A DNA stretch of 64,000 nucleotides, taken from positions 1,844 through 65,843 of IMG/VR virus record IMGVR_UViG_2799112767_000002; one strand, 5' to 3'. The notes under the pieces were generated by a model. That model did not search any database. It saw only the letters and a list, made by a program, of their open reading frames with translations, and was not told where the DNA came from. Below are positions 24,282-54,650 of the stretch, piece by piece. The stretch's first letter is position 1; each line of letters starts with the position of its first letter. Source of the stretch: a virus. Taxonomy: Duplodnaviria > Caudoviricetes. Made by a program: the position numbers and the translations under genes.

Positions 24282-24384
24282 TCCCTCGAACAGGCGCGAG
24301 AGTTCCTGACGTATCTCGTCCTCACGGGCGAAAGTGGCGACGGGAAGACCGCCGTCCGCAAGGATTCGGGCATAGCGTTCGTGC

Positions 24385-24422
24385 AGCCCCAGGTAATCAC
24401 TGGGGCTCAGTCGAAAAAAGGG
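24385..24422 (-). promoter_or_regulatory. Candidate -1 programmed ribosomal frameshift signal (portal to MuF)
   Basis: C CCT TTT TTC slippery run, 5-nt spacer, perfect 8-bp stem AGCCCCAG-tgattac-CTGGGGCT. The -1 frame is the MuF frame. Confidence 0.65.
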
Positions 24423-25741: not shown

Positions 25742-25746
25742 GATTG

Positions 25747-26166: not shown

Positions 26167-26176
26167 AGCCAGAAGT

Positions 26177-26407
26177 TTAGAGTGTTATGTAAAGAGCCTT
26201 TGCTTCAAGGTCGGCAATGGTGGTACCTTTCCGGAACACCCCACCGGCTATGAACTTTTTGAGTTCCTGCTTGGAGAGGACTTCGAGGTGTTTGTTAATG
26301 ACCAGCACCATATATTTACGGTGCGTGATATGGTGAAAGCGGTCTGCTTTCTTGACGGCACGCTTGAAGCGGAAGCCGAAAATGAGGTCTTTAATGAGTT
26401 GGAACAT
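26177..26407 (-). CDS. Phage hypothetical protein
   Basis: Likely start ATG 26407 (MFQLIKDL...). Confidence 0.6.
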   Translation of the reverse strand: MFQLIKDLIFGFRFKRAVKKADRFHHITHRKYMVLVINKHLEVLSKQELKKFIAGGVFRKGTTIADLEAKALYITL

Positions 26408-26408
26408 A

Positions 26409-27971
26409 TTACCATTGGTTTTTGGAGGTCGGACGTTTGCCGAACCTCGGTGAATAAATCTGTTGTCTTGTATTTCTCTGCAGGATCCAGATGGCACCCT
26501 CGTCGGCATCAGGCGCGTCGTCGTTCCCGGACATACCCTTCTCGAATGCCAACAGCTGCTCCAGTCCGGCTTGCATGTCGGGGTCTTCCTTCTGTGCTTG
26601 GTCGTAGAACACGAAGCCACGCTCCCAGAGCGGACTGATGGCCTCGATACGCTGGAACTTGTCCGGTTTTTTGCGCGTGTCGCCCGTGATGGGGAGTTGG
26701 TAGCCACGCAGATTGCCCTCCTCCGTGAAGTCGTCGAGTATCATATCCTGCATAAATGAAGCCTCCATCGCAAAGCGTATGGCAATGCCTACTTCCTGGC
26801 TCCACTCGTAGAGGTCGTAACACCAGCGCACCAGTTCCGCTACCGATGCCTTGCGCACGAAAGCGCGGAGGTGCCAGAGCTCCGTCTTGCGCTTTGCCCA
26901 TAGTTTGGCCGCCTTGGTGTCGTTGGTCTTCTTGCTTTTCCAGGACGGGTCGATATAGAGGACAAATTCGGTAAAGTCCTTCCACGCTGGACGCTTCGCC
27001 CACTTGATCCATTCCTGCCGGAAGACGGTGCCCTCCACGATGGGGTTGTGCATCATCTCCTTGTTCCAGGCACGATAGCCCACGAACTCCATGTACTCAC
27101 GAGCCTCCTCCTTGGTCCATTTCTCTTTCCATACGGGGTTGCCCTCATTGTCAACGGCATATACCGTTGAGACGTGGACGCCCTTTGTGGCGCATATATT
27201 CGCCAGGACGGAAGTCTTGGATATGAGGTTGCCCACCATGAGGAAGCGACCGCGACCCACGTCGAGCGCTCCGAAGAGTGCCTCCTTTACCCAGTCGGTG
27301 AGTTCACGGACACGCCGTTCGTTACGGCATAGTTCGTCGTCGTCGAGGTCGTCGATGACAATGTAGTCAGGACGCGACTCACGCTTACGGAGACCACGTG
27401 GCGACTGCCCACGGCCACAAGCCAGGAAATACACCCCGTCCTTGGTGGTGAACTCACCCTCCGTCCAGTTGCCGAGCGTCATTTGTTTGCCGAAATCAGC
27501 AATGATGCGTTTGTTATACTGGAGCTCCGCCTGAATGTCACCCAGCAGTCGGTCGGCGGAGTCCTCGGACTTTCCGACAATCACCATGAAATTGATGAGC
27601 CGCTTCGGTTGGAACATCAACCAGAGCGGCATGAAGATGTCGAAGTGTGTGGACTTGGCGTGACCGCGTGGCCACTTGAAGACCGCCTTCAGGTTCGGCG
27701 TGTTTTTTACGAGTTTGGCTGCCGCATTGTGAAATGGGGCATTGTGGATGGTGCGTATGGCTTCGCCAGTCACCTTGTCACGGAGTGTAAGGAAATGCGG
27801 AAAGTAATACTCACAGAAAGCGGCATAGTCTTTCTGGAGGCGGCGTATGCGCTGCTCCTTCTGGGTGGCATTCTCACGTACGAGACTTTTCGTGTCGGTC
27901 AGGTTTTGGATCTGCCGGCAATGCTCCCTCCACTCCTCCTGTACTTTCTTAAATTCCGCGATAGTGGACAT
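26409..27971 (-). CDS. Terminase large subunit
   Basis: WPRGHAKST, RGLR...RPDYIVIDDLDDD, YIDPS, DDAPDA. Confidence 0.92.
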   Translation of the reverse strand: MSTIAEFKKVQEEWREHCRQIQNLTDTKSLVRENATQKEQRIRRLQKDYAAFCEYYFPHFLTLRDKVTGEAIRTIHNAPFHNAAAKLVKNTPNLKAVFKWPRGHAKSTHFDIFMPLWLMFQPKRLINFMVIVGKSEDSADRLLGDIQAELQYNKRIIADFGKQMTLGNWTEGEFTTKDGVYFLACGRGQSPRGLRKRESRPDYIVIDDLDDDELCRNERRVRELTDWVKEALFGALDVGRGRFLMVGNLISKTSVLANICATKGVHVSTVYAVDNEGNPVWKEKWTKEEAREYMEFVGYRAWNKEMMHNPIVEGTVFRQEWIKWAKRPAWKDFTEFVLYIDPSWKSKKTNDTKAAKLWAKRKTELWHLRAFVRKASVAELVRWCYDLYEWSQEVGIAIRFAMEASFMQDMILDDFTEEGNLRGYQLPITGDTRKKPDKFQRIEAISPLWERGFVFYDQAQKEDPDMQAGLEQLLAFEKGMSGNDDAPDADEGAIWILQRNTRQQIYSPRFGKRPTSKNQW

Positions 27972-42760: not shown

Positions 42761-45700
42761 ATGACAGAGCAAGAGAAACAAGAAATCAAGCAGGAAGTGC
42801 TGAACGCCATCAAGAGCGAGAGCCAGGGCGTGACGGAACTGGAGGAAGTGTCGAGCCTTGACGGGGTGAAGACCCTGCCCGCGCTTCGCGGCACGGAACT
42901 GGTGAGTGCGCCTGTAAGTCTGCTGGGCAAGCCGGCTACCGATGCGGCAGCGCAGGCACTGGCAGCGAAAGCAGCGGCAGAAGGAGCAGCCGGAACCGCC
43001 AACACCGCCGCGGGCAATGCCGACGCAAAGGCTCAGGCGGCACAGACGGCGGCACAAGCGGCCACGGATGCGAAAGAAGCGACGGAGCAAGCCACACAAG
43101 CAGCCGAAGCCGTGGTGGAACAATATGAGGACGTGGCAGTGTTGGCTCGGAACGGTGCCACAGCCCGTTTTGCCGGCATATTGGATGACGTGACGCTGGC
43201 GGAGCAGAGCTTCACCAGTGTGGATGCCATCTACTATGTGACGGCGAAGAAACTGTTTGTCGGCAAGAATGGCACAAGATACAGCATGTCTTGGAAAGGT
43301 TGTGAAATGTACAACGACCTGACCGCTGACCCGATAGGCATCAGGAAGGACAAACTCTACCTGCAGGGCGACACACTCTATGCCTGGAGCGACGAAGATA
43401 ATGCCCTTGTGGAGGCCAGCGGCACCGGCGGCGGCAATACCATCAACGTGACGGAGACCTATCCGCTGGACAATGGCTTTTACACCCTTGCCACCGCCAT
43501 CAGAGCCGTGGAGGAGAAGAAGCGCGTGAAAGGCGCATGTGTGACCTTCGAGGTGAGCCAGGGCAAGTGGCAGACGAAGCAGTTTGTGGGTACCAGCCTG
43601 ACCAGTTGGGAGAGCGAGAGCAGCTGGGACGACTTCGGCGGTGGCGGCACGGTGAAGAGCGTGACGCTGAACGGTCAGAAGAAGACCCCCGACGCCCAAG
43701 GCAACATAGACCTGACGGTGGACGAGTTGACGGTGGATGCGAGCCTGGATGCCCAGAGCACGAACCCTGTGGAGAACCGCGCCGTTGCTGGCAAGTTCAA
43801 CGAGATAGAGAGTGCGACCCTGTTTGACAGCGACGTGGAGGAAGGCGACGACGGCACCCAGACGGTGACGCTGAAGAACAAGAGCGGTGCGGCCATTACC
43901 CAGTTCACGCTGGCAGCCGGCGGTGGCGGTGGCGGCGGCGACACCCAGGCGACGAAGATTGTGCTGGGCGCAAGCGTGAACCAGGGCATCATCAAAGAAG
44001 GCGGGAACTGCGTGCTGACGTGGAGCTATGACCATCAATATACCAGCGGCGATGATGCAGGCCAGACAACAGGGCAGAAGGCAACGGTGGAGATAAGGGT
44101 GCTTCGAGGCTCCATCCTTGCCTACAGCGTCACGACGGAAGACGTGAGCAAAGGCACCTACACGCTGGATGTGAGCAAATACCTGCAGGTGGGCACGACC
44201 GACATCTACGTGAAGGCGACGACCACCGACCCGACTACGGGCAAGACACAGACGAAGCAGGCGTATGCGAACGTGAAGGTGGTGAACCTGAGCCTGCAGA
44301 GCAGTTACAGCCTGAGCAGCGGTCTGAGCACCGGCGGCTACGGCTCGACGGAAAGCGCGGTCATCCCCTACACCGTGCAGGGCACCGGCACGAAGGTCGT
44401 CACCCTGTATGTGGACGGGAGCCAGTACGAGACTGCGACCGTGACCAGGAGCGGCGCGACTAACGGCAGTTTCACGATACCGATGAGCGGACTGACCATA
44501 GGCCGTCACACGGTGCAGATGGTGGCCGAGATGGATGCCAGCGCCGACCTGACGCTGAGGAGCGAGAGCATCTACATGGACATCTTCAAGGCCGGCAGCA
44601 GTGCCCCGCTGATCGGCACGAAGCACACGTTCCAGGACGGACGCATCTTCACGACAGACCACCGCACCCCACGTCTGGCAGCCGGACAGTATGAGCAGCT
44701 GACCTTCGAGTATGCCGTGTATGACGCAGGCGTTACCCCTGCCCCGATGAGTGTGTGGCAGAACGGGGAGAAGGTGCAGGACGTGTCGGTTCCCCGTAGC
44801 ACCCAGACCTACGCCAACCGCTTCACGGAGCAGGGCGCACAGACCATGAAACTGGTGAGCGGCGCGACGGAATACCCGTTCTATATCGACGTGAGCAAGA
44901 GCAGCATCGACGTGGAGGAAGCGACCCTTGACCTGCGGCTGAAGCTGAGCGCCGCCGGCAGGAGCAACGGCGAGAGCGACCCCGTGCACTGGGAGCACGG
45001 CGAGGTGAAGACCACCTTCGAGAACGTGGACTGGCAGACGAGCGGGTGGACCGGCGAGTCGCTGAAGCTGATGAACGGCGCGAAAGCCTACATCGACTTC
45101 AAGCCCTTCACGCAGGATGCCGCCACGACGGGCCGCACGTTTGAGGTGGAACTGAAGGTGAGCAACATCACGGACAAGGAGAGCGACGTGGTGAGTTGCC
45201 TGGACGGAGTGAAGGGCTTCCAGATCACGGCAGACAAGGCCATGATGTACACCGGCTCGACGAAGGAGGTGGAGGACGAGGACGGCAACAAGACCACCCA
45301 GCCCGTGGGCGTTGGCCGCCAGTACGGTCAGGATATGTGGGTGAAGATTGCTTTCGTGATTGGCAAGCGCTCAGAAGGGCGCCTGATGGAACTCTACGTG
45401 AACGGTACGCGCTGCGCTGCCGACATCTACGGTGACAGCGACAACTTCATGCAGGACACGCCGAAGGGAATCACGCTGGACAGCACGGGTGCAGACGTGG
45501 AGGTGCGGACGGTGCATGTGTATGACCGTGCGCTGAGCGACGACGAGGAAATGGACAACCACATCGTGAACCGCCAGACGCTGGACGAGATGGCCGCCCT
45601 GTTTGAAGAGAACGACGTGCTGGGCGAGGACGGACGGAGCATCGACTTCCAGAAACTGCGTAACAAGGGCAAGGGCATCATGCTCGTGGTGCGCCAGGGC

Positions 45701-48700
45701 GGACTGGACCCTGTGAACGCCGAGAACAACAAGAAGACCGACTTCCTTGCCGACGTGCACCTGTGGCTTCCGGACGGACGGTACATCTACCTGCACAACG
45801 TATATATCAGAATCCAGGGCACGAGCTCGACGAAATACCCGACGAAGAACTACCGCATCTACTGCGCGAAGGGAGAGAATCCGGAGATGTATATCAACGG
45901 CGTGAAGCAGACGGAACTGAAGATCGCCCTGCGCGTGGGACAGAAGAAAGTGAAGATCCTTTGTGCCAAGGCTGACTACTCAGACTCGTCAATGGCTCAG
46001 AACACCGGCGGCGCGAAGCTGTGGAACAACCTGATGAAGTCGCTGGGGTTCCTGACCCCGCCTCAGCAGGTGGACAGCAACGTGAGGACAGCCGTGGACG
46101 GTTTTCCTATCGACGTGTTCTCGGCAGAGAGCCTGGAGGACACGCCGACCTACTACGGCCAGTACAACCTGAACCACGACAAGAGCGACTGGCAGGCTAT
46201 CATCGGCATGGAAGGCGTGGATGGTTTCACGCCGACAGAACCCATCGCCTTCGAGTTCCTGAACAACACGCAGCCGCTGTGCCTGTTCCAGGGACAGAGC
46301 GACCTGGACGCGCAGGCGGCAGCGGAGTTTGACAACGCCCTGGAGTTCAACTACCCGGCGAAGACGGGTGGCGAGGATACGAAGTGGGCCAATGCGCCGA
46401 CGGCGAAGAAAAACGCCTTCAAGCGTCTGTGGGGCTGGATTAGGGACTGTGTGCCGGCAGGCGCGACACCGAGCGACGTGAGCACGTTTGTCTCGAGCGA
46501 GTTCAAAACGGAGGTGAGCCAGTACCTGAACCTGAACTTCCTGCTGTGCTGGTGGCTGTTCACGGATTACTTCGCCAACGTGGACCAGCGGGCGAAGAAC
46601 ATGATAGCCGCGACGTGGGATGCGCTGGTGTGGTATCTGCTGTATTACGACGGCGACACCCAGATTGGCGACCGCAACGACTCGATGCTGGCATACCTGT
46701 ACAACGTGACGCGAGAGACGTGGGACAGCGACAAGAACAAATACGCCTTTGAGGGCCACGACTCGTGGCTGTGGTGCCTGGTTCTCGCCAACTTCAAGGA
46801 TGAGATCAAGGCGATGGCCACGACGATGAGAGAGAAACTGACCGAGGAACTGGTGAACCAGATGTTCGACGAGGAGCAGCAGGGGAACTGGTGCGGCAGA
46901 GCCTACAACAAGAGCGGCGAAATCAAGTACATCAAGCCCCAGACCGAGGGTGTGCAGACGAAGACCGGCATCGTGAAGTACCCGTATATCTACGCCCTGA
47001 AGGGTGACAAGCAGGCATTCAGGCACTGGTTCATCCAGAACCGCTTCGCCCTGCTCGACGCGAAGTATGAGACGGGCAACTATCTCTCTGACAACATAGA
47101 CATGTATATGAGCCGCCAGGCGACGGAGGCGGCCAACACCATCGTGGTGAAGGCGAGCGAACTCTACTACTTCGGCTACGGCACGAACAACGCCCCCCAC
47201 CTGCAGCCGAGCGAGGAGGCCAAGAAAGGCGGCACGGTGACGCTGGTGTTCAGCAACGCCTTCACGGTGAACGACCCGATAAGAATCTACGGCGCGAGCC
47301 GCATTGCCGAACTGAACATGGAGGGAGCGGCGAACAACCTGACGGGTGACCTGAACCTGAACAAGTGCAAGGTGCTGCGTGTGCTTGACCTGCAGACGAA
47401 CGGGAGCGGCAGCACCGGCTGGTGTCTGGTACTGGACCAGTGCCGCCAGTTGACCGACGTGAACCTGTACGGTCAGGCGAGTGCGAAGACCGGCACGCTG
47501 AGCAGCACGGAACTGGACTTCAGGAACCAGACGCGACTGAAGACGCTGGACGCTCGCGGCGTGAACGTCCAAGCGGTGCTGTTTGCTCAGGGCTGTCCTC
47601 TGACGACCGCCAAACTGGGCAGCAACATCCAGACGCTGAGACTGGAGTATCTGCCCGACCTGAAGGAGAGCGGACTGACGCTGCAGAACTGGCGGACGGT
47701 GAAGACGCTGCGCTATGCCGGTTGCCCGAACATCAGCTGGCAGTCGATGATCAGCAAGTGCGTGAACGTGGAACGTGTGCGCATCGAGGGCATCAGCGTG
47801 GAAGACGACGGAACCCTGCTGAACCGCTACAAGAACCTGAAGGGCGTGGACGCGAGCGGCAACGCCGTGGACTACTGCGCCCTTGTGGGCACGGTGCAGC
47901 TGACGAGCTACATGGACGACGAGGACTATGCCGCCATGCAAGCGAGATACCCGGAGCTGACGATCCTGCAGCCCGACTACTCGATGCTGGAGTTTGACGA
48001 CACGGTGAGCGACGACGCCAACGTGAGCAACCTGGACAACGGGACGGGCTACAAGTTCGGCACGGACTATGTGGCGAGCGGCCATGTGCTGGCACTGCTG
48101 AAGAGGCGCTACCGCTGCCTGGCGAAGGTGACGAAGAAGCCGACCTCGCGGAACATCACCCATGCAGGCGTGGCGACGACGCAGAACAATGGGGATGGCG
48201 AGGCGACCATCTATCCGCTCCATGCAGAGAACTCGAACTACTACGCCGATGCCCAGGAACTGAAGAACTGCTCGGCGGCTAAGCTGGACAGCACGGAGGG
48301 CGACTGGATGATGTATGAGCCCCACCGCTGGTTCAAGGGTGTGAACGACTACCTGAACGGCAAGCACTATGCTTGCTGGAGCAGCAACGAGCGTATGCCG
48401 AAGAAGCCGGACTGCGACATTGTGACCCTGGACGAGATCAAGGATGCCGGTGACTACCGGAATAACTACAAGATCATGAGCGGCAAGGAGACGCTGGCGC
48501 AGAGCTACACGGCAGACAACAGCTACGCCGTCTGCAGGGTGGGCGTGAGCGGCTACAAGAAAGTGCGCTTCCCAAGTGTGCCAGGCACGAACCTTGTGTG
48601 TGCCGTGTTCACGGACTCAGCTGGTCTCGTAGTGGGCACGGTAGTGGTGAGCACGCTCGGCTCGAAGTTCGTTGCCGGCATGTACCTGATAGCCGACGTT

Positions 48701-49642
48701 CCGGCAAATGCCGTTGCCCTGAACTTCTCGATTCTGAAGACTGCGGAGTTTGACATGGTGGTGCTGAGCAACAGCACGAAGATAGAGGACATGGAACCCG
48801 ACTGGGTGGAGGTGGAGCCCTACCTGTGCGCCGTAGTGGGCAGCAGCGTGGTCGGGGACAAACTGAGAGCCTGTATCACCGGCGGCTCGACAGCAGCGAG
48901 CATGACGTGGACTGACTTCCACTTCTACTCTGCCCAAAGAGGTATGCAGCAGATAGACGGCCTGATGCACAACGACATCGCCAACCTGTTCTTTGCCAAG
49001 TACGGGCGGCGAGACAGCCAGATGCAGTGCGGCGCGGGACAAAACTCAAACACCAGAACCACCGGCGGCACTGCGAAGATAGGCATGCAGGACACGGTGA
49101 ACACGAACGGCACGACCGTGGGCGGCGTGGAAGGCAACGGTAAGGCCTTCTACAAGGAGACGAACACGGACGGCGAGACGGTGTTCTACCAGTTGAACAA
49201 CACGAACTGCCTCGGCTACGAGGACATCTACGGCCATAAATATGATATGATGGACTGCGTGGACGTTCCGAACGACAGCGGTAACGGCGGCAAGTGGCGA
49301 TACCTGATGCCTGACGGAACATACCGACGGGTAAAGGGCGTGGAGGCCACCGGCTGGATCAACGGCGTGACACACGGAAAATATATGGACGTGGTGCCAG
49401 CAGCCGCTTCGGGCAGCAGCACGACATACTATTGTGACTACTATTACTACAGTGGTTCCACAGGCCGTGTGGTCTATCGCGGCAACAACCACGCGTATGC
49501 GAATGGCGGTGTGTCGTGCGCGTATGCGTTTAGCGATGCGTCGAGCTCGCATGCGTATGTCGGGTCGCGTCTGGCCTTCCGCGGCAAAATCGTGGTGGCG
49601 GAGAGCGTGGCCGCGTACAAGGCGGCAGTCGAGGTAGCGTAA
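42761..49642 (+). CDS. Giant tail fibre/adhesin and DGR target (LamG-like, CotH-like, LRR and C-type-lectin-fold C-terminus)
   Basis: 2293 aa; VR at the 3' end (GRVVYRG...VGSRLAFRG); domain motifs are listed in the findings. Confidence 0.8.
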   Translation: MTEQEKQEIKQEVLNAIKSESQGVTELEEVSSLDGVKTLPALRGTELVSAPVSLLGKPATDAAAQALAAKAAAEGAAGTANTAAGNADAKAQAAQTAAQAATDAKEATEQATQAAEAVVEQYEDVAVLARNGATARFAGILDDVTLAEQSFTSVDAIYYVTAKKLFVGKNGTRYSMSWKGCEMYNDLTADPIGIRKDKLYLQGDTLYAWSDEDNALVEASGTGGGNTINVTETYPLDNGFYTLATAIRAVEEKKRVKGACVTFEVSQGKWQTKQFVGTSLTSWESESSWDDFGGGGTVKSVTLNGQKKTPDAQGNIDLTVDELTVDASLDAQSTNPVENRAVAGKFNEIESATLFDSDVEEGDDGTQTVTLKNKSGAAITQFTLAAGGGGGGGDTQATKIVLGASVNQGIIKEGGNCVLTWSYDHQYTSGDDAGQTTGQKATVEIRVLRGSILAYSVTTEDVSKGTYTLDVSKYLQVGTTDIYVKATTTDPTTGKTQTKQAYANVKVVNLSLQSSYSLSSGLSTGGYGSTESAVIPYTVQGTGTKVVTLYVDGSQYETATVTRSGATNGSFTIPMSGLTIGRHTVQMVAEMDASADLTLRSESIYMDIFKAGSSAPLIGTKHTFQDGRIFTTDHRTPRLAAGQYEQLTFEYAVYDAGVTPAPMSVWQNGEKVQDVSVPRSTQTYANRFTEQGAQTMKLVSGATEYPFYIDVSKSSIDVEEATLDLRLKLSAAGRSNGESDPVHWEHGEVKTTFENVDWQTSGWTGESLKLMNGAKAYIDFKPFTQDAATTGRTFEVELKVSNITDKESDVVSCLDGVKGFQITADKAMMYTGSTKEVEDEDGNKTTQPVGVGRQYGQDMWVKIAFVIGKRSEGRLMELYVNGTRCAADIYGDSDNFMQDTPKGITLDSTGADVEVRTVHVYDRALSDDEEMDNHIVNRQTLDEMAALFEENDVLGEDGRSIDFQKLRNKGKGIMLVVRQGGLDPVNAENNKKTDFLADVHLWLPDGRYIYLHNVYIRIQGTSSTKYPTKNYRIYCAKGENPEMYINGVKQTELKIALRVGQKKVKILCAKADYSDSSMAQNTGGAKLWNNLMKSLGFLTPPQQVDSNVRTAVDGFPIDVFSAESLEDTPTYYGQYNLNHDKSDWQAIIGMEGVDGFTPTEPIAFEFLNNTQPLCLFQGQSDLDAQAAAEFDNALEFNYPAKTGGEDTKWANAPTAKKNAFKRLWGWIRDCVPAGATPSDVSTFVSSEFKTEVSQYLNLNFLLCWWLFTDYFANVDQRAKNMIAATWDALVWYLLYYDGDTQIGDRNDSMLAYLYNVTRETWDSDKNKYAFEGHDSWLWCLVLANFKDEIKAMATTMREKLTEELVNQMFDEEQQGNWCGRAYNKSGEIKYIKPQTEGVQTKTGIVKYPYIYALKGDKQAFRHWFIQNRFALLDAKYETGNYLSDNIDMYMSRQATEAANTIVVKASELYYFGYGTNNAPHLQPSEEAKKGGTVTLVFSNAFTVNDPIRIYGASRIAELNMEGAANNLTGDLNLNKCKVLRVLDLQTNGSGSTGWCLVLDQCRQLTDVNLYGQASAKTGTLSSTELDFRNQTRLKTLDARGVNVQAVLFAQGCPLTTAKLGSNIQTLRLEYLPDLKESGLTLQNWRTVKTLRYAGCPNISWQSMISKCVNVERVRIEGISVEDDGTLLNRYKNLKGVDASGNAVDYCALVGTVQLTSYMDDEDYAAMQARYPELTILQPDYSMLEFDDTVSDDANVSNLDNGTGYKFGTDYVASGHVLALLKRRYRCLAKVTKKPTSRNITHAGVATTQNNGDGEATIYPLHAENSNYYADAQELKNCSAAKLDSTEGDWMMYEPHRWFKGVNDYLNGKHYACWSSNERMPKKPDCDIVTLDEIKDAGDYRNNYKIMSGKETLAQSYTADNSYAVCRVGVSGYKKVRFPSVPGTNLVCAVFTDSAGLVVGTVVVSTLGSKFVAGMYLIADVPANAVALNFSILKTAEFDMVVLSNSTKIEDMEPDWVEVEPYLCAVVGSSVVGDKLRACITGGSTAASMTWTDFHFYSAQRGMQQIDGLMHNDIANLFFAKYGRRDSQMQCGAGQNSNTRTTGGTAKIGMQDTVNTNGTTVGGVEGNGKAFYKETNTDGETVFYQLNNTNCLGYEDIYGHKYDMMDCVDVPNDSGNGGKWRYLMPDGTYRRVKGVEATGWINGVTHGKYMDVVPAAASGSSTTYYCDYYYYSGSTGRVVYRGNNHAYANGGVSCAYAFSDASSSHAYVGSRLAFRGKIVVAESVAAYKAAVEVA
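49462..49574 (+). repeat. DGR variable repeat (VR)
   Basis: 113 bp identical to the TR except for 10 substitutions, all at TR adenines. Confidence 0.97.
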
Positions 49643-49686
49643 GCGGAAAAGCGAAAACGGGAGCGAAGCGACAAAGCGTAAAGCGT

Positions 49687-49732
49687 GATGTCTGAGGTAC
49701 GAAGACATCAAGAAATACGGGCGTAAGCCCGT
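49687..49732 (+). promoter_or_regulatory. Hairpins downstream of the VR (candidate DGR target-recognition cruciform)
   Basis: GATGTCT...AGACATC and ACGGGC-GTAA-GCCCGT. Confidence 0.65.
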
Positions 49733-49757
49733 CGAAGTTGGTGGAATTTTCGGTAGC

Positions 49758-49781
49758 CTCGCTGAAAATGAGTACCTTTGC
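49758..49781 (+). promoter_or_regulatory. Promoter for the TR-RT transcript
   Basis: TACCTTTG -7 element at 49773-49780. Confidence 0.65.
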
Positions 49782-49827
49782 AGTCGGAAAGCTGACAATA
49801 TGCACTTTTCAGGGTGGAAGCTCCCAT

Positions 49828-49940
49828 AGGCCGTGTGGTCTATCGCGGCAACAACAACGCGAATGCGAATGGCGGTGTGTCGTACGCGAATGCGAATAAC
49901 GATGCGTCGAACTCGAATGCGAATGTCGGGTCGCGTCTGG
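49828..49940 (+). repeat. DGR template repeat (TR)
   Basis: 11 AAC/AAT codons in the VR frame; located upstream of the RT. Confidence 0.97.
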
Positions 49941-50160
49941 ACAACAACCAAAGAAACTGAAATCGGCGTACAGCGACGGGGACGTGTCCCCAGTGCGGTG
50001 CCGAGGGAGCCGAGCCCCACCAACAGCGGCTTAACCTCTATAAAGAGGACATGACACCGCTCATGTGCCGGAAAGGTGAAAAACGGAGTGACGGGTAGAG
50101 TTTGGTAGGTCGGTAACGGCTCGAAGAACTTGGACCCACGGAAGGAAGGCTTCGGCCTTC
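49941..50160 (+). ncRNA. Structured spacer of the DGR RNA (TR 3' region)
   Basis: Hairpins GGGGAC-gt-GTCCCC and GAAGGC-TTCG-GCCTTC (50145-50160). Confidence 0.5.
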
Positions 50161-50181
50161 GCAAACAACAATTTTTGAACT

Positions 50182-51486
50182 ATGCGCAGAGAAGGTTACA
50201 TCATTGAGGAAATCGTTGAGTACGGCAATATGTCGGACTCCTTCGATACGGTGCTCCGAGGCACGAAGCGGAAACGCTCACGCCAGGGGCGCTGGCTCCT
50301 TGCGCATAGGGACGAGGTGATACGGGACCTGACGGAGCGTATAGCGTCCGGCACGTTCACCGTGAAGGACTACAGGGAGCGCGAGATCGTGGAAGGCGGC
50401 AAGCTGCGCAAGATACAGGTGCTCTCCATGTATGACCGCATCGGCGTACATGCCGTGATGAATGTCGTGGACAGGCACATGCGCAAGCGCTTTATCCGCA
50501 CCACCTCGGCCAGTATCAAGGAACGCGGGATGCACGACCTGCTGGCGTATATCCGGCGCGACCTGGAGGAAGATCCTGACGGAACGCGGTACTGCTACAA
50601 GTTCGACATCTCGAAGTTCTACGACAACGTGCAGCCGGACTTTGTGATGTACTGCGTGAAGCGGATTTTCAAGGACAAAAGGCTCATTGCCCTGCTGGAC
50701 GGCTTTGTCCGCATGATGCCGTCGGGCATCAGCATCGGGCTGCGTAGTTCGCAGGGGCTGGGCAATCTCTTATTGTCTGTATTTTTAGACCACTATTTGA
50801 AGGACAGGTACGGCGTGCGTCATTTCTACCGCTATTGTGATGACGGCGTGGTACTCGGAAAATCGAAAGCGGAATTGTGGCTCGTGCGTGACGTGGTACA
50901 CGAACTGGTGGAGCATATAGACTTGGAGGTGAAAGCCAACGAGCGCGTGTTCCCGGTAAGTGAGGGCATCGACTTCCTGGGCTATGTGATTTACAGTTCC
51001 AAGCATGTGGAACTGCGCAAGCGCATCAAGCAGAAGATGGCCCGCAAGATGCACGAGGTCAGGAGTAGGAAAAGAAGGCGTGAATTGATAGCGAGCTTCT
51101 ATGGCATGGCAAAGCACGCCAATTGTAACATGTTGTTTAATAAATTAACAGGCAAACAGATGAAATCATTCAAGGATTTGAAAGTCGCTTACAAACCGGA
51201 GGACGGCAAGAAGCGCTTCTCTGGTGCGGTGGTAAGCATCAGGGAATTGGTGAACCTGCCCATCGTAGTCAAGGACTTCGAGACAGGCATCAAGACAGAG
51301 CAGGGCGAGGACCGCTGCATCGTGGCCATCGAGCAGAACGGCGAGCCCAAGAAGTTTTTCACCAACAGCGAGGAGATGAAGAATATCCTCGCCCAGATTA
51401 GAGAAATGCCCGACGGGTTCCCCTTCGAGACCACCATCAAGACGGAGACCTTCGGCAAAGGTAGAACCAAGTACGTTTTCACTTAG
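50182..51486 (+). CDS. DGR reverse transcriptase with a ~108-aa C-terminal extension
   Basis: KFDISKFY, IGLRSSQ, YRYCDD, IDFLGY; adjacent to the TR. Confidence 0.95.
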   Translation: MRREGYIIEEIVEYGNMSDSFDTVLRGTKRKRSRQGRWLLAHRDEVIRDLTERIASGTFTVKDYREREIVEGGKLRKIQVLSMYDRIGVHAVMNVVDRHMRKRFIRTTSASIKERGMHDLLAYIRRDLEEDPDGTRYCYKFDISKFYDNVQPDFVMYCVKRIFKDKRLIALLDGFVRMMPSGISIGLRSSQGLGNLLLSVFLDHYLKDRYGVRHFYRYCDDGVVLGKSKAELWLVRDVVHELVEHIDLEVKANERVFPVSEGIDFLGYVIYSSKHVELRKRIKQKMARKMHEVRSRKRRRELIASFYGMAKHANCNMLFNKLTGKQMKSFKDLKVAYKPEDGKKRFSGAVVSIRELVNLPIVVKDFETGIKTEQGEDRCIVAIEQNGEPKKFFTNSEEMKNILAQIREMPDGFPFETTIKTETFGKGRTKYVFT

Positions 51487-51491
51487 AGACA

Positions 51492-51977
51492 ATGCAAAGG
51501 ACAGAAGGAACCGCCGGTGTAAAACTGATTGAATGCGTCAGCCCGGCAAGAAACAAGTGGCGCGTCCGCTGGGACGTGCAGGAACATGAGGACGGATCTG
51601 CCGACTACATGGAGGCGGAGTTCGCCCACAAGCCGACTGACGAGGAAATCAAGGCCGCTGTCATTGGCTGGTACAATCAGCAGACCGACCAGACCATCCT
51701 GTCCGGCTTCGAGTATGAGGGCGACCCTGTGTGGCTGTCCTCTGAGAACCAGTTCAACTACAAGGCAGCCTACGACCTCGCCGTACAGTCGAATGGTACG
51801 ACGCTACCTGTGAAGTTCAAGTTCGGTACAGACGAGCAGCCGAAGTATCGGGTGTTTGAAAGACTGGAGGAACTGGCTGACTTCTACACGAAGGCCATGC
51901 GTTTTATCCAGGACACGCTGGATGCTGGATGGCAGAAGAAAGATGCGTTCAACCCGGAAGACTATCGGGATGAATAA
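51492..51977 (+). CDS. DUF4376-like phage protein
   Basis: VWLSSENQFNYKAAYDLAVQ..G..LPV.FKFGTDE.P. Confidence 0.65.
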   Translation: MQRTEGTAGVKLIECVSPARNKWRVRWDVQEHEDGSADYMEAEFAHKPTDEEIKAAVIGWYNQQTDQTILSGFEYEGDPVWLSSENQFNYKAAYDLAVQSNGTTLPVKFKFGTDEQPKYRVFERLEELADFYTKAMRFIQDTLDAGWQKKDAFNPEDYRDE

Positions 51978-52001
51978 ACTCTGAAGGAAGCCCTTGGGGG
52001 T

Positions 52002-52140
52002 GGGCATAAAAAAGCCCCCAGCCTGTTAATATAGACGCCAATCATTTATTAACAACGCACCCATACAGGAGACAGCTGGGGGCCTATGCCCTTCACTCCC
52101 CTGTATGGGTTTTTATATGCGAAATAAATGATTGGCGGTA
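52002..52140 (-). ncRNA. Candidate ~135-nt structured RNA (nested stems plus a pseudoknot or alternative terminator pairing)
   Basis: 15-bp, 11-bp and ~19-bp complementary blocks; minus-strand TACCTTTG at 52141-52148; U6 run at 52008-52013. Confidence 0.55.
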
Positions 52141-52163
52141 CAAAGGTATAAAAAAATAATGAA

Positions 52164-52406
52164 ATGACGCTGTTTGAGATATTAAATTTCAATAAAGAGC
52201 TTATTGACAGGCTTATTTCGGTCGGTTTTAAGCCCGACGACTGCCGTTACGTGGCACTTTACGCAGATTATATGAAGATGCACGGACGTGGCGAGAAAGT
52301 GACGTATATCGTGACTCTGCTCTCTGACAAGTACAAGGTGAGCGAGCGCAAGGTGTACAACATCATCAAGAAGTTTGAGACTAACTGCACGGCTGGTGCA
52401 GTGTGA
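52164..52406 (+). CDS. Small HTH-like phage protein
   Basis: LSDKYKVSERKVYNIIKKF. Confidence 0.6.
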   Translation: MTLFEILNFNKELIDRLISVGFKPDDCRYVALYADYMKMHGRGEKVTYIVTLLSDKYKVSERKVYNIIKKFETNCTAGAV

Positions 52407-52428
52407 TTTGGCTTGAACTTTCCCTTGT

Positions 52429-52452
52429 CTCGCTGAATGACCGTACCTTTGC
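52429..52452 (+). promoter_or_regulatory. Promoter of the MTase-TS operon
   Basis: CTCGCTGAA-N5-GTACCTTTGC, the same layout as the TR promoter. Confidence 0.65.
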
Positions 52453-52473
52453 GGTGATAAAATTAGCGAGACA

Positions 52474-53304
52474 ATGAGAAAGCAATATCTATCGGCACCG
52501 CTTCCTTTCCAGGGACAGAAGCGTATGTTTGCCAAAGAGTACATTAATGTGCTCCAGCAGTTCCCTGACGGTACGACATTCGTGGACCTGTTCGGCGGCT
52601 CTGGCTTATTATCACACATAGCCAAGTGCCAGAAGCCGCATTCCAAGGTAGTATATAACGACTTTGACGGCTATCGCCAGCGGCTTGAAGCCCTGCCTGT
52701 CACCAATGCGCTGCTGGCAGAACTGAGGGAGATTGTGGATGTGCCACGCCACAAGCCCATATTGGGGGAGACAAAGGAACGTGTGCTGTCCTGCGTCCGC
52801 AAATACCTACACGACTACGGCTATATCGACTATATCACGCTGTCCTCGTCGATTATGTTCTCTATGAAGTACGCCACCGAGTTTTCGGATCTGGAGAAGG
52901 AAACACTATATAATAATATAAGGACGACCGACTATGAACCGTGCTTGGACTACCTCGACGGGCTGACCATTACCTCCTGTGACTACAGGGAGGTGTTTGA
53001 GCAGTACAAGGACGTGCCAGGTGTGGTGTTCCTGGTTGACCCTCCGTATTTGAGCACGGACAGCAAGACATACAAGATGTACTGGAAATTGTCAGACTAC
53101 CTCGATGTGCTGACGGTGCTTGCCGGACATCGCTTTATCTATTTCACCTCTAACAAGTCTTCTATCGTTGAACTGTGCGACTGGATGGGTAAGCATCCGG
53201 AACTGGGCAACCCGTTTGAGAACTGCCAGCGTCGTGAGTTCAATGCCCACATGAATTACAGCGCGTCCTACACGGACATCATGCTATATACGAAAGCCGC
53301 TTAA
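52474..53304 (+). CDS. Dam-like (D12 class) DNA amino-methyltransferase
   Basis: PFQGQKR, DLFGGSG (motif I), DPPY (motif IV). Confidence 0.85.
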   Translation: MRKQYLSAPLPFQGQKRMFAKEYINVLQQFPDGTTFVDLFGGSGLLSHIAKCQKPHSKVVYNDFDGYRQRLEALPVTNALLAELREIVDVPRHKPILGETKERVLSCVRKYLHDYGYIDYITLSSSIMFSMKYATEFSDLEKETLYNNIRTTDYEPCLDYLDGLTITSCDYREVFEQYKDVPGVVFLVDPPYLSTDSKTYKMYWKLSDYLDVLTVLAGHRFIYFTSNKSSIVELCDWMGKHPELGNPFENCQRREFNAHMNYSASYTDIMLYTKAA

Positions 53305-53329
53305 ACAACATTCTAATACCGTTTGAACG

Positions 53330-53968
53330 ATGAACAAATACTACCAGATACTGGGCAAGGTTCTGGAGAAAGGAAAGACCCAGACGAACAAGAAAGGAAA
53401 TATCCGCTACCTGCTCAATGAGCAGTTGTCATTGACCCCTGCCGACCTGCTCGATATATTCGAGAGCCACGGCATAGCCAGGAAGAAACTGAAGAATGAG
53501 TTGCAACTTTTTATGCAGGGTGAGCGGAACGTGGAACGATACCGCGACGTGGGCATCAACTGGTGGGACTATTGCGGTTCTGTCCTGGTGAACAGTTACC
53601 CGACCTACTTTGAGAAACTGCCTCCACTCATTGCGAAGATAAACCGCGAGAAGCGCAACAGCAAGAACTATGTGCTGTTCCTCGGTGAGACTGGTGCAGA
53701 GAGCAACCAAGCCCCATGCCTGAGCCTCGTGCAGTTCCAGATAGACGACGGGGAACTGGTACTGTCAGCATACCAGCGAAGCAGCGACGCGAACCTTGGC
53801 TTGCCGGCTGATATTTACCATCTCTACCTCATGGCTCGGCAGATAGATTTGCCTCTGAAAAGCATAACGCTGAACCTTGGCAACGTACACATATACGAGA
53901 ACAACCAGGAACGCACACGCCAGCTGCTTGATGGCGACGAGAATGTGAAGTTTGATTTGAACGTTTGA
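53330..53968 (+). CDS. Thymidylate synthase homolog with Asp at the Asn177 position (possibly dCMP-specific)
   Basis: APC catalytic Cys, YQRSSDANLGLPADI, NVHIYEN. Confidence 0.85.
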   Translation: MNKYYQILGKVLEKGKTQTNKKGNIRYLLNEQLSLTPADLLDIFESHGIARKKLKNELQLFMQGERNVERYRDVGINWWDYCGSVLVNSYPTYFEKLPPLIAKINREKRNSKNYVLFLGETGAESNQAPCLSLVQFQIDDGELVLSAYQRSSDANLGLPADIYHLYLMARQIDLPLKSITLNLGNVHIYENNQERTRQLLDGDENVKFDLNV

Positions 53969-53986
53969 AACAACATGGAGAAAAAG

Positions 53987-54018
53987 AAAACGCCCCAGAG
54001 AAATCTGAGGCGTTTTTT
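53987..54018. terminator. Terminator near the prophage right end
   Basis: AAAACGCCCCAGA-gaaa-TCTGAGGCGTTTTTT. Confidence 0.75.
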
Positions 54019-54045
54019 CGTTGTGGGGAAGGAACCCGAAAAAGT

Positions 54046-54106
54046 AACATTTCGTTTTGCGAAGCGGAACGCGTCGTTTAATTTTTCAGGAACATTTCGT
54101 TTTGCG
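54046..54106 (-). repeat. Right-end putative transposase-binding sites
   Basis: AACATTTCGTTTTGCG occurs twice (54046 and 54091). Confidence 0.8.
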
Positions 54107-54113
54107 GATTATA

Positions 54114-54533
54114 CCTCTCTATATTTCCCATCTCAGCCAAAACGGTAATAAGGATGGATGCAATTGGGTTGACTTCTCCATTAGGTTGCAGCGAGTATAA
54201 GCCAAGGTTCTGAATGTAGACTGAAACCTTAGCCTCATGTAGCTGCTCAAGGGATTTCAGTACTTGCAGCGTCGATCTCCCTAAGCGGCTCAGTTCAGAT
54301 AGTAGGAGGTAATCGACATGGTTCTTGGTGCAGTAGTCAAGGCACTCGGTCAGAACTTGTCGCTCCTCATTTTTCTTCGCCCCTGAAATATGCTCTTCAT
54401 AGATTTTGACAATTTCCATATCCTGGGCTTCGCTGAATTTTTGAAGGTCTGTGATTTGTCGTGATGTGTCCTGCCTGTCATTTTCAGAACTCACCCTGGC
54501 ATAAATCACGGCCCTCTTGTTTTTTGCGTTCAT
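54114..54533 (-). pseudogene. 5' half (catalytic domain, 140 codons) of the interrupted serine resolvase
   Basis: VIYARVSS...ISG...ELSRLGRS...LAEMGNIER, truncated at the prophage end. Confidence 0.92.
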
Positions 54534-54650
54534 AATAATCTTTGAATTAAAAGAATATATTGAAAGGGTGTATCCATTAGCCGTTACAGACTTTTTTGAA
54601 TACACCCATGAAATGAACACACTAATGGCTCATCGGCAGCACTAGTGTTA

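What the first reader, a model, noticed from the sequence alone, without database searches (positions are those of the whole stretch)
52474..53968. MTase plus thymidylate-synthase homolog with the dCMP-type Asp, at the Mu mom position
Seen: the TS homolog reads YQRSSDANLGLPADI against E. coli YQRSCDVFLGLPFNI, so Asn177 is replaced by Asp; the catalytic Cys is retained. It is co-transcribed with a DPPY-type MTase from its own promoter at the prophage right end. Established: Asn177 gives dUMP specificity; Asp there (T4 dCMP hydroxymethylase Asp179, engineered N177D TS) favours dCMP; Mu places its anti-restriction DNA modifier mom at this end. Inference: a two-gene cytosine/adenine modification or nucleotide-pool module (for example 5-methyl- or 5-hydroxymethyl-dCMP) that is probably mis-annotated as thyA. 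No dNMP kinase is visible, so the route into DNA is unclear.
Basis: partly seen in the sequence, partly recalled or inferred. Interest (0 to 1): 0.72.

Follow-up and report, generated by a model that had tools for sequence, protein, structure and literature searches.

The report
Hankyphage cytosine-type ThyA paralog plus Hia5-like methylase
A very common Mu-like gut prophage (a Hankyphage relative) carries a broad-type adenine DNA methylase next to a stripped-down "thymidylate synthase" whose active site is built for cytosine rather than uracil nucleotides; this points to an untested second DNA or nucleotide-pool modification, but both enzyme types are already known in other phages.

Summary
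ORF 53330-53968 (212 aa) is a thymidylate-synthase (TS) fold protein. It keeps Cys146, Glu58, Arg166, Ser167, Asp169, His207 and Tyr209 (E. coli numbering) but has Asp at Asn177. ORF 52474-53304 is a DPPY methylase 25 nt upstream.

The window holds a Hankyphage-type Mu-like prophage with a DGR. The host has its own thyA-folA, so the phage gene is a divergent extra copy.

The TS belongs to a monophyletic short clade (about 210 aa) with invariant Asp177, Gln143, Leu/Ile147, Lys126 and Asn127, and a retained ThyA-like C-terminal tail. No characterised subfamily has this signature. I predict a dCMP C5-methylase, less likely a hydroxymethylase.

The methylase is 35% identical (E 7e-55) to Hia5, the non-specific m6A methylase that replaces mom in Haemophilus and Neisseria Mu-like prophages.

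The two genes lie side by side in 74 of 80 Bacteroidales loci, in both orders. Each also occurs without the other, and more distant members of the TS clade have no such methylase nearby.

No phage kinase or dCTPase was found, so any substitution of C in DNA would be partial.

This scan found the same pair before in other genomes. It is a new variant of known kinds, not tested experimentally, of moderate interest.

The parts
52036..52137 (+). Nested hairpin with an inner stem followed by a U-run. Probable terminator or insulator between the DGR accessory gene (DUF4376, ends 51977) and the cassette.
   Evidence: The RNA fold of 51985-52165 gives -65 kcal/mol, z -4.3, and 0 of 200 shuffles fold as well. 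The sequence was read.
52164..52406 (+). 80-aa helix-turn-helix protein (HTH80), the first gene of the cassette. It precedes TS and/or the methylase in all relatives checked.
   Evidence: PHROG_17790, E 8e-30. Pfam hits to Mor and HTH_28 are weak and below cut-off. It is found upstream of MT and/or TS in the loci.
52445..52452 (+). TACCTTTG, which matches the Bacteroidetes -7 promoter element TAnnTTTG, 22 nt before the methylase start. It is a candidate only.
   Evidence: Read from the sequence. No full TTTG-N17-23-TAnnTTTG match lies here.
52474..53304 (+). Hia5/Hin1523-family (D12/Dam-fold, alpha-class) DNA N6-adenine methyltransferase, 276 aa.
   Evidence: PF02086 E 1.6e-7, TIGR00571 region around DPPY, PHROG_56 E 9e-32. 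35% identity to Hia5 (P0335) over 272 residues, E 7e-55. 33% identity to SuMu_53, which follows com. The AF2 model (pLDDT 79) is closest to E. coli Dam, T4 Dam and DpnM. dN/dS 0.07.
53330..53968 (+). Short thymidylate-synthase-superfamily enzyme, 212 aa, with Asp at Ec-Asn177, Gln at Leu143, Leu at His147, Lys/Lys/Asn at Arg21/126/127, and a ThyA-like C-terminal tail (VKFDLNV). Predicted dCMP C5-methylase or hydroxymethylase.
   Evidence: The AF2 model has pLDDT 94 and TM 0.84-0.86 to bacterial ThyA. The clade has 100/99 support. dN/dS 0.04.
53987..54016 (.). 13-bp GC-rich hairpin flanked by A-run and T-run (a two-way intrinsic terminator) just after the TS stop codon.
   Evidence: sequence.
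54047..54113 (+). Prophage right end. It holds two direct copies of ACATTTCGTTTTGCG (54047, 54092), and the element ends at about 54113.
   Evidence: Pattern search finds 3 matches against 0.19 expected, with an inverted copy at 13037-13051. Contigs from different runs diverge from the window exactly at 54113 (table 7).

Best explanation
The last transcription unit of this Hankyphage-type transposable prophage is an accessory DNA-modification cassette with three genes: a small HTH protein, a methylase and a TS paralog. (1) The methylase belongs to the Hia5/Hin1523 family. By homology it methylates adenine N6 in DNA with little sequence specificity. It is the functional stand-in for Mu Mom, giving broad protection from restriction. 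(2) The TS paralog uses the conserved TS chemistry: Cys attack at C6 and one-carbon transfer from methylene-tetrahydrofolate to C5. It acts on dCMP rather than dUMP, because Asp replaces Asn177 and His147 is lost. I predict 5-methyl-dCMP as the most likely product. The reasons are that the acidic residue which activates water in all known hydroxymethylases is absent (Gln here, Asn in the verified Xp12 dCMP methylase), that the ThyA-type C-terminal tail which seals the folate site for hydride transfer is kept, and that the clade branches with ThyA-like proteins. Host DHFR would recycle the dihydrofolate. Inferred steps: the host Cmk and Ndk phosphorylate the product, and the host replisome incorporates it during replicative transposition. 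Because no phage dCTPase or kinase is present, C would be only partly replaced. The two enzymes act independently and are co-selected as anti-restriction cargo. What is shown: fold, residues, homology, synteny and purifying selection. What is inferred: substrate, product, entry into DNA and biological role.
For: TS fold and catalytic set are retained. Asp177 is invariant in the clade. Aligned reference enzymes reproduce the published signatures. ThyA and td have L143/N177. T4 dCH has D143/D177. SP8 dUMP hydroxymethylase has D143/N177. RB69 5-hydroxy-dCMP synthase has E143/N169/D177. Xp12 has N143/D177. The rules come from PMC6400193, PMC13326640 and PMC8670742, and Xp12 TS was verified to make 5mdC (bioRxiv 10.1101/2024.12.05.627091). 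The C-terminal heptad with Lys at -6 and a terminal Val matches ThyA (IKAPVAI against VKFDLNV) and is absent from T4 dCH, RB69 gp48 and SP8 dUH. In the tree the short clade sits with L143/D177 long forms and ThyA, apart from T4 dCH, RB69 gp48 and Xp12. Ser167 is kept, which is the deoxyribose-type state (PMC5175136). The host has its own ThyA, DHFR and Cmk. The methylase shows homology to Hia5 and to the com-linked SuMu_53, and Hia5, Hin1523 and Nme1821 were shown to be non-specific m6A enzymes (PMC3299994). TS and MT are adjacent on one strand in 74/80 genome loci. Both genes are under strong purifying selection.
Against: No biochemical or modification data exist for any member of this clade. 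Gln143 matches neither Leu (ThyA) nor Asn (Xp12) exactly. Trp83 (Cys here) and Leu143, the two residues that keep water out of the ThyA site, are both replaced, as in hydroxymethylases. Arg21, Arg126 and Arg127 of the phosphate clamp are Lys, Lys and Asn, so nucleotide binding may differ. Lys at 126 is the MilA/BcmA (ribo) state. No phage dNMP kinase, dCTPase or DHFR was found in the prophage or among recurrent neighbours of distant clade members. In the published assays a TS homolog without a promiscuous kinase gives only trace incorporation (PMC13326640). The Hankyphage papers report no modification. The methylase shares only 35% identity with Hia5, so relaxed specificity is not assured.
Confidence: 0.5

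Rival explanations
1. The TS paralog is a dCMP hydroxymethylase that makes 5-hydroxymethyl-dCMP, as T4 gp42 does, giving partly 5hmC-substituted DNA.
For: Asp177 is shared with T4 dCH. Lys replaces Arg21 as in T4 dCH (Lys28). Trp83 and Leu143, which exclude water in ThyA, are replaced by Cys and a polar Gln. The protein is short, like dCH.
Against: The signature Asp/Glu three residues before the catalytic Cys is absent, and even D145N kills T4 dCH (PMC6400193). The Ser-x-Tyr signature is not clearly present (N-S-Y-P-T-Y). A ThyA-like C-terminal tail is retained, whereas dCH lacks it. The top 50 structural matches are all ThyA. The clade is not with T4 dCH in the tree. No glycosyltransferase or kinase is present.
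Confidence: 0.2
2. The enzyme changes the nucleotide pool and does not mark DNA. For example, 5-methyl-dCMP could be deaminated by the host dCMP-deaminase-like enzyme to dTMP, a ThyA-independent thymidylate route as proposed for Xp12. Alternatively, dCMP could be drained during lytic growth.
For: No phage kinase or dCTPase exists in this phage or in the other small temperate-type phages that carry the clade. The host has a dCMP-deaminase-like gene (89.6 bits). In Xp12 the TS homolog sits beside a deaminase and DHFR, and part of the 5-methyl pool becomes thymidylate (bioRxiv 10.1101/2024.12.05.627091).
Against: The host already has ThyA and DHFR. The repeated pairing with DNA methylases of two different families points to a DNA-modification theme. 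No phage deaminase lies next to it.
Confidence: 0.15
3. It is a working thymidylate synthase (dUMP to dTMP) despite the Asp. That would make it an ordinary phage thyA-type auxiliary gene, as annotated.
For: All core catalytic residues, the TS fold and the C-terminal tail are present. Temperate phages are known to carry true TS genes (my own knowledge: phi3T thyP3).
Against: Asp177 is invariant and His147 is lost. These are the two positions most associated with cytosine modification (PMC8670742). Engineered N177D reverses specificity (cited there). The score is far below the ThyA equivalog cut-offs. The host has ThyA.
Confidence: 0.07
4. It is a MilA/MilB-like pair. The TS paralog modifies CMP or dCMP, and the prophage's DUF4406 protein (19393-19857, nucleoside 2-deoxyribosyltransferase superfamily) cleaves the product or canonical nucleotides, so that a free modified base or a depleted pool is the output.
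For: DUF4406 E 5.5e-21 and PHROG_355. The gene is conserved in Hankyphage relatives, and in many it lies within 4 kb of TS-MT. Lys at Ec-Arg126 is the MilA/BcmA state (PMC5175136).
Against: Ser167 is the deoxy-type state, not Ala. No DUF4406 homolog lies near the TS in the distant clade members. The proximity in relatives comes from a block rearrangement. No function is known for this DUF4406 protein.
Confidence: 0.05

Closest known systems
Bacteroides phage p00 (Hankyphage, BK010646) 'thymidylate synthase' DAC76694 and 'DNA methyltransferase N6' DAC76695
   Same: They are orthologues: TS 86% and methylase 64% identical. The phage type is the same (Mu-like transposase A/B, Gam, DGR, HTH80 gene upstream).
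   Different: The gene order is swapped (MT-TS here, TS-MT in p00). The window's type is the one found in Prevotellaceae genomes. Neither gene has been studied in p00.
Xanthomonas phage Xp12 deoxycytidylate methyltransferase (TS homolog QNN97214)
   Same: Asp at 177, an amide side chain at 143 (Asn against Gln), His147 lost, and Tyr94, Glu58 and Asp169 kept. It makes 5-methyl-dCMP (verified in bioRxiv 10.1101/2024.12.05.627091).
   Different: 289 aa against 212 aa. It keeps Arg21/126/127. It has a different C-terminus. It sits with a phage deaminase, DHFR and a HAD hydrolase in a lytic phage whose C is fully replaced. It is not in the same clade.
T4 gp42 dCMP hydroxymethylase
   Same: TS fold, Asp179 equivalent, Lys at the Arg21 position, short length.
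   Different: T4 has Asp145 (Gln here), lacks the ThyA C-terminal tail, keeps Arg123/124, and works with dCTPase, gp1 kinase and glucosyltransferases (PMC6400193).
Hia5 / Hin1523 / Nme1821 non-specific DNA adenine methyltransferases of Mu-like prophages (Drozdz et al. 2012, PMC3299994)
   Same: 35% identity over the full length, motifs FxGxG and DPPY in alpha-class order, about 280 aa, and a place in the last operon of a Mu-like prophage where Mu has mom.
   Different: No com gene lies upstream; an unrelated 80-aa HTH gene does. The host phylum differs. A TS paralog is added. In many relatives the block is internal. Specificity has not been tested.
Mu Mom (adenine carbamoylmethylation)
   Same: Position at the right end, a probable anti-restriction role, and a separate late transcription unit.
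   Different: No sequence or fold relation, and different chemistry (methylation by a Dam-fold enzyme).

Membership tests
Thymidylate synthase superfamily (PF00303 fold) | Significant profile match and the TS alpha/beta fold | tested here: met
   PF00303 72.9 bits against a cut-off of 24.3. The AF2 model has pLDDT 94 and TM 0.84-0.86 to ThyA structures.
Thymidylate synthase superfamily (PF00303 fold) | Catalytic Cys146 with Glu58, Arg166, Ser167, Asp169, His207 and Tyr209 | tested here: met
   All are invariant in alignments A1 and A2 and in 42 clade members.
ThyA (dUMP to dTMP) equivalog | Asn177 and His147, which read the uracil O4/N3 | tested here: not met
   Asp and Leu.
ThyA (dUMP to dTMP) equivalog | Score above the NCBIfam equivalog cut-offs | tested here: not met
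   Best score 62.9 bits against 327 (NF002497), and 58.5 against 108 (TIGR03284).
ThyA (dUMP to dTMP) equivalog | Hydrophobic Leu143 and Trp83 sealing the site; C-terminal tail | tested here: inconclusive
   Leu143 is Gln and Trp83 is Cys, but the C-terminal heptad with a terminal Val is kept.
T4-type pyrimidine hydroxymethylase (dCH/dUH/MilA) | Asp or Glu three residues before the catalytic Cys | tested here: not met
   Gln in 42/42 members. T4 has D, SP8 has D and RB69 has E in the same column. The rule is from PMC6400193 and PMC13326640.
T4-type pyrimidine hydroxymethylase (dCH/dUH/MilA) | Ser/Thr-x-Tyr water-binding motif; no C-terminal tail | tested here: inconclusive
   The motif here reads N-S-Y-P-T-Y, and the alignment gives Pro-Thr-Tyr. 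A tail is present.
5-hydroxy-dCMP synthase (RB69 gp48 type) | Asp169 replaced by Asn | tested here: not met
   Asp169 is invariant, while RB69 gp48 shows Asn in that column. The rule is from PMC13326640.
dCMP C5-methylase (Xp12 type) | Asp177 without an acidic residue at position 143 | tested here: met
   D177 and Q143, against D177 and N143 in Xp12.
dCMP C5-methylase (Xp12 type) | Same clade as, or same gene context as (deaminase, DHFR, kinase), the verified enzymes; 5mC in virion DNA | tested here: not met
   It forms a separate clade. There is no deaminase, DHFR or kinase in the phage. Virion base composition cannot be tested with these tools.
MilA/BcmA CMP hydroxymethylase | Ala at Ec-Ser167 and Lys at Ec-Arg126 | tested here: not met
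   Ser is kept (41/42) and Lys is present (42/42), so the signature is mixed and resembles the dCMP-preferring MilA A176S mutant (PMC5175136).
Hia5/Hin1523 non-specific m6A methyltransferase family | Full-length sequence homology to Hia5, with motif I FxGxG before motif IV DPPY | tested here: met
   35% identity, E 7e-55, over residues 5-272. The motifs are visible. The fold is closest to Dam, T4 Dam and DpnM.
Hia5/Hin1523 non-specific m6A methyltransferase family | Sits after com in place of mom in a Mu-like prophage | tested here: inconclusive
   It is in the last operon of a Mu-like prophage, but without com. SuMu has com followed by the homolog. The block is internal in many relatives.
Hia5/Hin1523 non-specific m6A methyltransferase family | Near sequence-independent adenine methylation | not testable with these tools
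   Needs SMRT or nanopore sequencing, or restriction-protection assays.
Mu Mom | Homology to the Mom acyltransferase-fold protein | tested here: not met
   Neither ORF hits a Mom family, and both have other clear folds.

The most novel reading that the evidence does not exclude
The short Gln143/Asp177 clade is a new functional type of TS-superfamily enzyme. With host kinases and the host replisome alone, it would let small temperate phages, including the globally abundant Hankyphage, load a C5-modified cytosine into their DNA during lytic replication. That cytosine could be methyl, hydroxymethyl or a product not yet described. Combined with near-global m6A from the Hia5-like methylase, it would give a dual-base camouflage in a kinase-less, polymerase-less transposable phage.
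Probability: 0.2. Interest if true: 0.75.

Novelty: new variant of a known kind. Interest (0 to 1): 0.5.

Why it matters
Hankyphage relatives are among the most widespread prophages of human and animal gut Bacteroidales. This methylase family has 460 relatives in species-representative genomes, and the identical TS protein lies on 762 contigs. A bioRxiv cohort study (10.64898/2026.03.05.709809) associates hin1523-type methylases with long-term persistence of gut phages.

If the 'ThyA' is in fact a cytosine-nucleotide modifier, three things follow. First, its annotation across hundreds of genomes is wrong. Second, these phages may carry a second modification that current methylome surveys would miss. 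Third, it would show that non-canonical pyrimidines can be made by small temperate phages without their own kinase or dCTPase.

The clade also offers a natural test of what decides methyl versus hydroxymethyl transfer, because residue 143 is Gln.

Tried and rejected
- **Phage megablast.** Searching 52000-54100 against phages gave no hit. The protein search was needed instead.
- **Word-indexed homolog search for the TS.** It returned only near-identical sequences and gave no view of diversity.
- **Context of three distant representatives.** The contigs were only 1.4-1.9 kb long and carried no information.
- **First viral-contig scan.** It returned only Hankyphage relatives. It was repeated with distant members placed first.
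- **Methylase against PDB sequences.** Neither the single sequence nor the profile gave a significant hit. The fold search gave the Dam family instead.
- **Full Bacteroides-type promoter upstream of the cassette.** The pattern TTTG-N17-23-TAnnTTTG was not found there. The sigma-70 scan does not apply to this host.
- **RNA-library contigs of four runs.** They cover the cassette, and one 1363-nt contig spans 52002-53364. Contigs cannot show strand, start or level, and DNA carry-over is possible, so I do not count this as evidence of transcription.
- **Rfam on 51800-54300.** Only one sub-threshold match appeared (BSnc120, 22.7 bits against 114). I rejected it.
- **DUF4406 protein against PDB sequences.** Nothing significant.
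- **Kinase, dCTPase or MazG among prophage early genes and recurrent neighbours of distant clade members.** None were found. The 206-aa P-loop protein is an ATPase of the DnaB/Sak4 type, not a nucleotide kinase.
- **Prophage left end and target-site duplication.** They could not be fixed precisely.
- **Physical TS-methylase complex.** Not tested, because nothing requires the two proteins to bind.
Full report
**What is there**

The window carries a prophage of about 41 kb, from about 13.03 kb to 54.113 kb. Its G+C content is 50-60%, against 36-45% in the flanks.

Its genes identify it as Mu-like:
- a CI-like repressor, a Mu A-type transposase and a B-type transposition protein;
- Gam, a GemA-like protein and a virion morphogenesis protein;
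- portal, terminase and head genes;
- a 2293-aa tail-fibre-like ORF followed by a reverse transcriptase and a DUF4376 protein, which together form a DGR.

A protein search against phage records identifies it as a relative of Bacteroides phage p00, the 'Hankyphage' (BK010646). The TS homolog is 86% identical and the methylase 64%. Methylases at 80% identity or more to the window's are found in Prevotellaceae genomes, so the host is probably a Prevotella-group bacterium. Its genome is 3.0 Mb in 97 contigs.

**Checking the observation**

ORF 52474-53304 (276 aa) and ORF 53330-53968 (212 aa) lie on the + strand, 25 nt apart.

The second ORF matches Pfam Thymidylat_synt at 72.9 bits. It is far below every NCBIfam ThyA equivalog cut-off; the best score is 62.9 against 327.

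HMMER alignments to E. coli ThyA structures, and three MAFFT alignments, put the catalytic Cys on Cys146 and Asp on Asn177. Also kept are Glu58, Trp80, Tyr94, Ser125, Arg166, Ser167, Asp169, His207 and Tyr209.

The changed positions are:

| E. coli residue | Residue here |
|---|---|
| Arg21 | Lys |
| Trp83 | Cys |
| Arg126 | Lys |
| Arg127 | Asn |
| Leu143 | Gln |
| His147 | Leu |

Two segments are deleted, roughly E. coli residues 95-110 and 215-255. The last seven residues (VKFDLNV) still align with the ThyA C-terminus (IKAPVAI), with Lys at -6 and a hydrophobic terminal residue.

An AlphaFold model is confident (pLDDT 94). Its 50 best PDB matches are all thymidylate synthases, with TM 0.84-0.86.

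The host has a canonical 264-aa thyA directly next to folA on another contig. The prophage gene is therefore an extra, divergent copy.

**The family**

A search of 1.8 billion cluster representatives found only 59 proteins at E below 1e-30, most of them fragments of the same protein. About a dozen were full-length relatives at 29-51% identity.

With members recovered from IMG/VR, the short proteins of about 210-230 aa form one clade with 100/99 support.

In 42 members, Asp177, Gln143, Lys126, Asn127, Cys146, Asp169, His207 and Tyr209 are invariant. Position 147 is Leu or Ile, and position 83 is mostly Cys. More distant representatives vary at 126 (Lys or Arg) and once at 143 (Phe). The tail K-[FY]-x-L-N-[VT] is almost always present.

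Pairwise dN/dS against the window gene has a median of 0.04 over 75 ungapped orthologues. The gene is therefore functional.

**What the residues predict**

I aligned enzymes of known product that I could fetch from public records: E. coli ThyA, the host ThyA, RB69 td, T4 gp42, SP8 dUMP hydroxymethylase, RB69 gp48 and the Xp12 TS homolog. They reproduce the published rules:

| Rule | Source |
|---|---|
| Asn177 reads uracil, Asp177 reads cytosine | PMC8670742, PMC13326640 |
| Asp/Glu three residues before the Cys marks hydroxymethylases; Leu marks ThyA; T4 D145N is inactive | PMC6400193 |
| Asn169 marks 5-hydroxy-dCMP synthases | PMC13326640 |
| Ser167 with Arg126 marks deoxyribo substrates; Ala with Lys marks ribo substrates | PMC5175136 |

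Xp12, whose TS homolog was verified to give 5mdC (bioRxiv 10.1101/2024.12.05.627091), has Asn143 and Asp177.

The window protein has Asp177, Gln143, Asp169, Ser167 and Lys126. This gives:
- cytosine specificity, which is strongly predicted;
- a deoxyribo substrate, which is likely;
- no hydroxymethylase signature and no hydroxylase signature;
- an amide at position 143, as in the one verified dCMP methylase;
- a retained ThyA-type tail, which in ThyA seals the folate site for hydride transfer (PMC6400193).

I therefore favour 5-methyl-dCMP. The loss of both Trp83 and Leu143 keeps hydroxymethylation open. The clade is not part of any characterised subfamily.

**The methylase**

Pfam gives a weak D12 (Dam-class) N-terminal hit, NCBIfam gives the Dam region around DPPY, and PHROG_56 gives a clear match.

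tblastn found homologs in Moraxella phages and in Haemophilus phage SuMu, which is Mu-like. There the homolog (SuMu_53) directly follows com, in the place of mom.

A homolog search with SuMu_53 returned the UniRef entry named Hia5 (P0335, 72% identical to SuMu_53). The window methylase is 35% identical to Hia5 over 272 residues, E 7e-55.

Drozdz et al. (PMC3299994) showed that Hia5, Hin1523 and Nme1821 replace mom in FluMu, Pnm1 and a related island. These enzymes make only m6A, and they methylate nearly all adenines, giving broad restriction resistance.

The model of the window methylase (pLDDT 79) is closest to E. coli Dam, T4 Dam and DpnM. These are the same neighbours reported for Hia5.

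**Is it a two-gene module?**

Within the Hankyphage lineage the genes are nearly always neighbours on one strand. This holds in 74 of 80 loci from different species' genomes: 48 as MT-TS and 26 as TS-MT. Viral contigs show the same.

The link is not obligatory:
- HTH80-MT without TS occurs (L225, L227, L243, L245).
- HTH80-TS without MT occurs (L018, L026, L052).
- In another DGR phage the TS follows an unrelated 310-aa D12 methylase (L089, L092, L093, L095, L096, L076).
- Thirty-seven more distant clade members (50-61% identity) have no homologous methylase within 8 kb. They sit in lambdoid-type replication/nin regions with an O-like initiator, a DnaB-like helicase, NinG, VRR-NUC, an exonuclease and, in six loci, a ParB-fused methylase, close to terminase genes.

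In many Hankyphage relatives the whole block RT-DUF4376-HTH80-TS-MT lies between the head genes and the early genes, not at the element's end.

I read this as two independent enzymes co-selected as anti-restriction cargo. All these loci are one lineage, so the adjacency counts are not independent events.

**Transcription unit**

A very stable nested hairpin with an inner stem and a U-run lies between the DUF4376 gene and the 80-aa HTH gene (z -4.3). A 13-bp hairpin with a T-run follows the TS stop codon.

The unit therefore looks like HTH80-MT-TS. A -7-like box (TACCTTTG) precedes the methylase, but no complete Bacteroides promoter was found. Contigs from RNA libraries cover the unit but cannot prove transcription.

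**Route into DNA**

The prophage has no recognisable dNMP kinase, dCTPase, DHFR, deaminase or glycosyltransferase. Neither do the neighbourhoods of distant clade members.

The host supplies Cmk, DHFR and a dCMP-deaminase-like protein. A Mu-like phage replicates with the host replisome; this point rests on my own knowledge.

Any substitution of C would therefore be partial, or the product may feed the pool instead (rival 2).

The early region does encode a DUF4406 protein of the nucleoside 2-deoxyribosyltransferase superfamily (19393-19857). It is the only other nucleotide-metabolism candidate in the prophage, and its role is unknown.

**Comparison and novelty**

Already known:
- the Asn177Asp switch;
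- TS homologs with Asp in modified metaviromes;
- the Xp12 methylase;
- Hia5-type methylases at the mom locus.

The Hankyphage papers held in the library do not discuss either gene beyond naming the 'methyltransferase end'.

What is new is a distinct, compact TS clade whose signature (Gln143, Lys126, Asn127, ThyA tail) fits no tested subfamily. It is carried by kinase-less temperate phages, including one of the commonest gut prophages.

Earlier agents of this scan reached the same reading on other genomes. That is repetition, not independent evidence. I re-tested the Hia5 and Xp12 comparisons here.

**Verdict**

This is a new variant of known kinds, with interest 0.5.

Noticed in passing
window 19393-19857 (+): A 154-aa early-region protein with a DUF4406 domain (E 5.5e-21) and a PHROG_355 'nucleoside 2-deoxyribosyltransferase' match, plus a Cys-rich C-terminal tail. 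It belongs to the same superfamily as MilB, BcmB and DNPH1, the N-glycosidases that partner TS-like enzymes. It is conserved in Hankyphage relatives. It may take part in nucleotide-pool manipulation.
   Followed up: partly
L042, L048, L054 (IMG/VR Hankyphage relatives), compared with window 50182-53968: In many relatives the block RT-DUF4376-HTH80-TS-MT lies between the minor-head gene and the o167/virS early-late genes, on the strand opposite to MuA/MuB. It is therefore internal and not at the Mu right end. The DGR-plus-modification block has moved within the lineage.
   Followed up: partly
L225, L227, L243, L245; L018, L026, L052; L089, L092, L093, L095, L096, L076: Natural variants exist: HTH80 plus methylase without TS, HTH80 plus TS without methylase, and TS preceded by an unrelated 310-aa D12-class methylase in a phage with a different reverse transcriptase. 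These are ready-made comparisons for modification analysis.
   Followed up: partly
window 54078-54620 (-) and prophage end at about 54113: A host ORF with a serine-recombinase (resolvase) N-terminal domain (E 7.8e-27) runs into the prophage's last 36 bases. The gene was probably disrupted by the transposition. Contigs from different runs diverge exactly at 54113.
   Followed up: partly
window 52036-52137 (+): A long nested inverted repeat (-65 kcal/mol, z -4.3) lies between the DGR accessory gene and the cassette. It holds a terminator-like inner hairpin. There is no Rfam match. Its role beyond termination is unknown.
   Followed up: partly
window 23091-27971 (-): The minor-head, portal and large-terminase genes lie on the minus strand between plus-strand early and late blocks, and AT skew flips there. 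This is an inverted head-gene block relative to the Mu order.
   Followed up: no
window 42761-51977: A DGR lies here: a 2293-aa tail-fibre-like target ORF, a reverse transcriptase (50182-51486) and a DUF4376 protein (51492-51977). It matches the Hankyphage DGR layout. The repeats were not mapped here.
   Followed up: no
window 54047-54061, 54092-54106 and 13037-13051 (-): ACATTTCGTTTTGCG occurs twice at the right end and once, inverted with 2 mismatches, at the left end (3 matches against 0.19 expected). These are probable transposase-binding end repeats.
   Followed up: partly
MT664984 (Xp12) 44377-46195, locus L164: The Xp12 TS homolog is flanked by a dCMP deaminase, a protein noted as dihydrofolate reductase, and a HAD hydrolase. 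It has Asn, not Leu or Asp, three residues before the catalytic Cys.
   Followed up: partly
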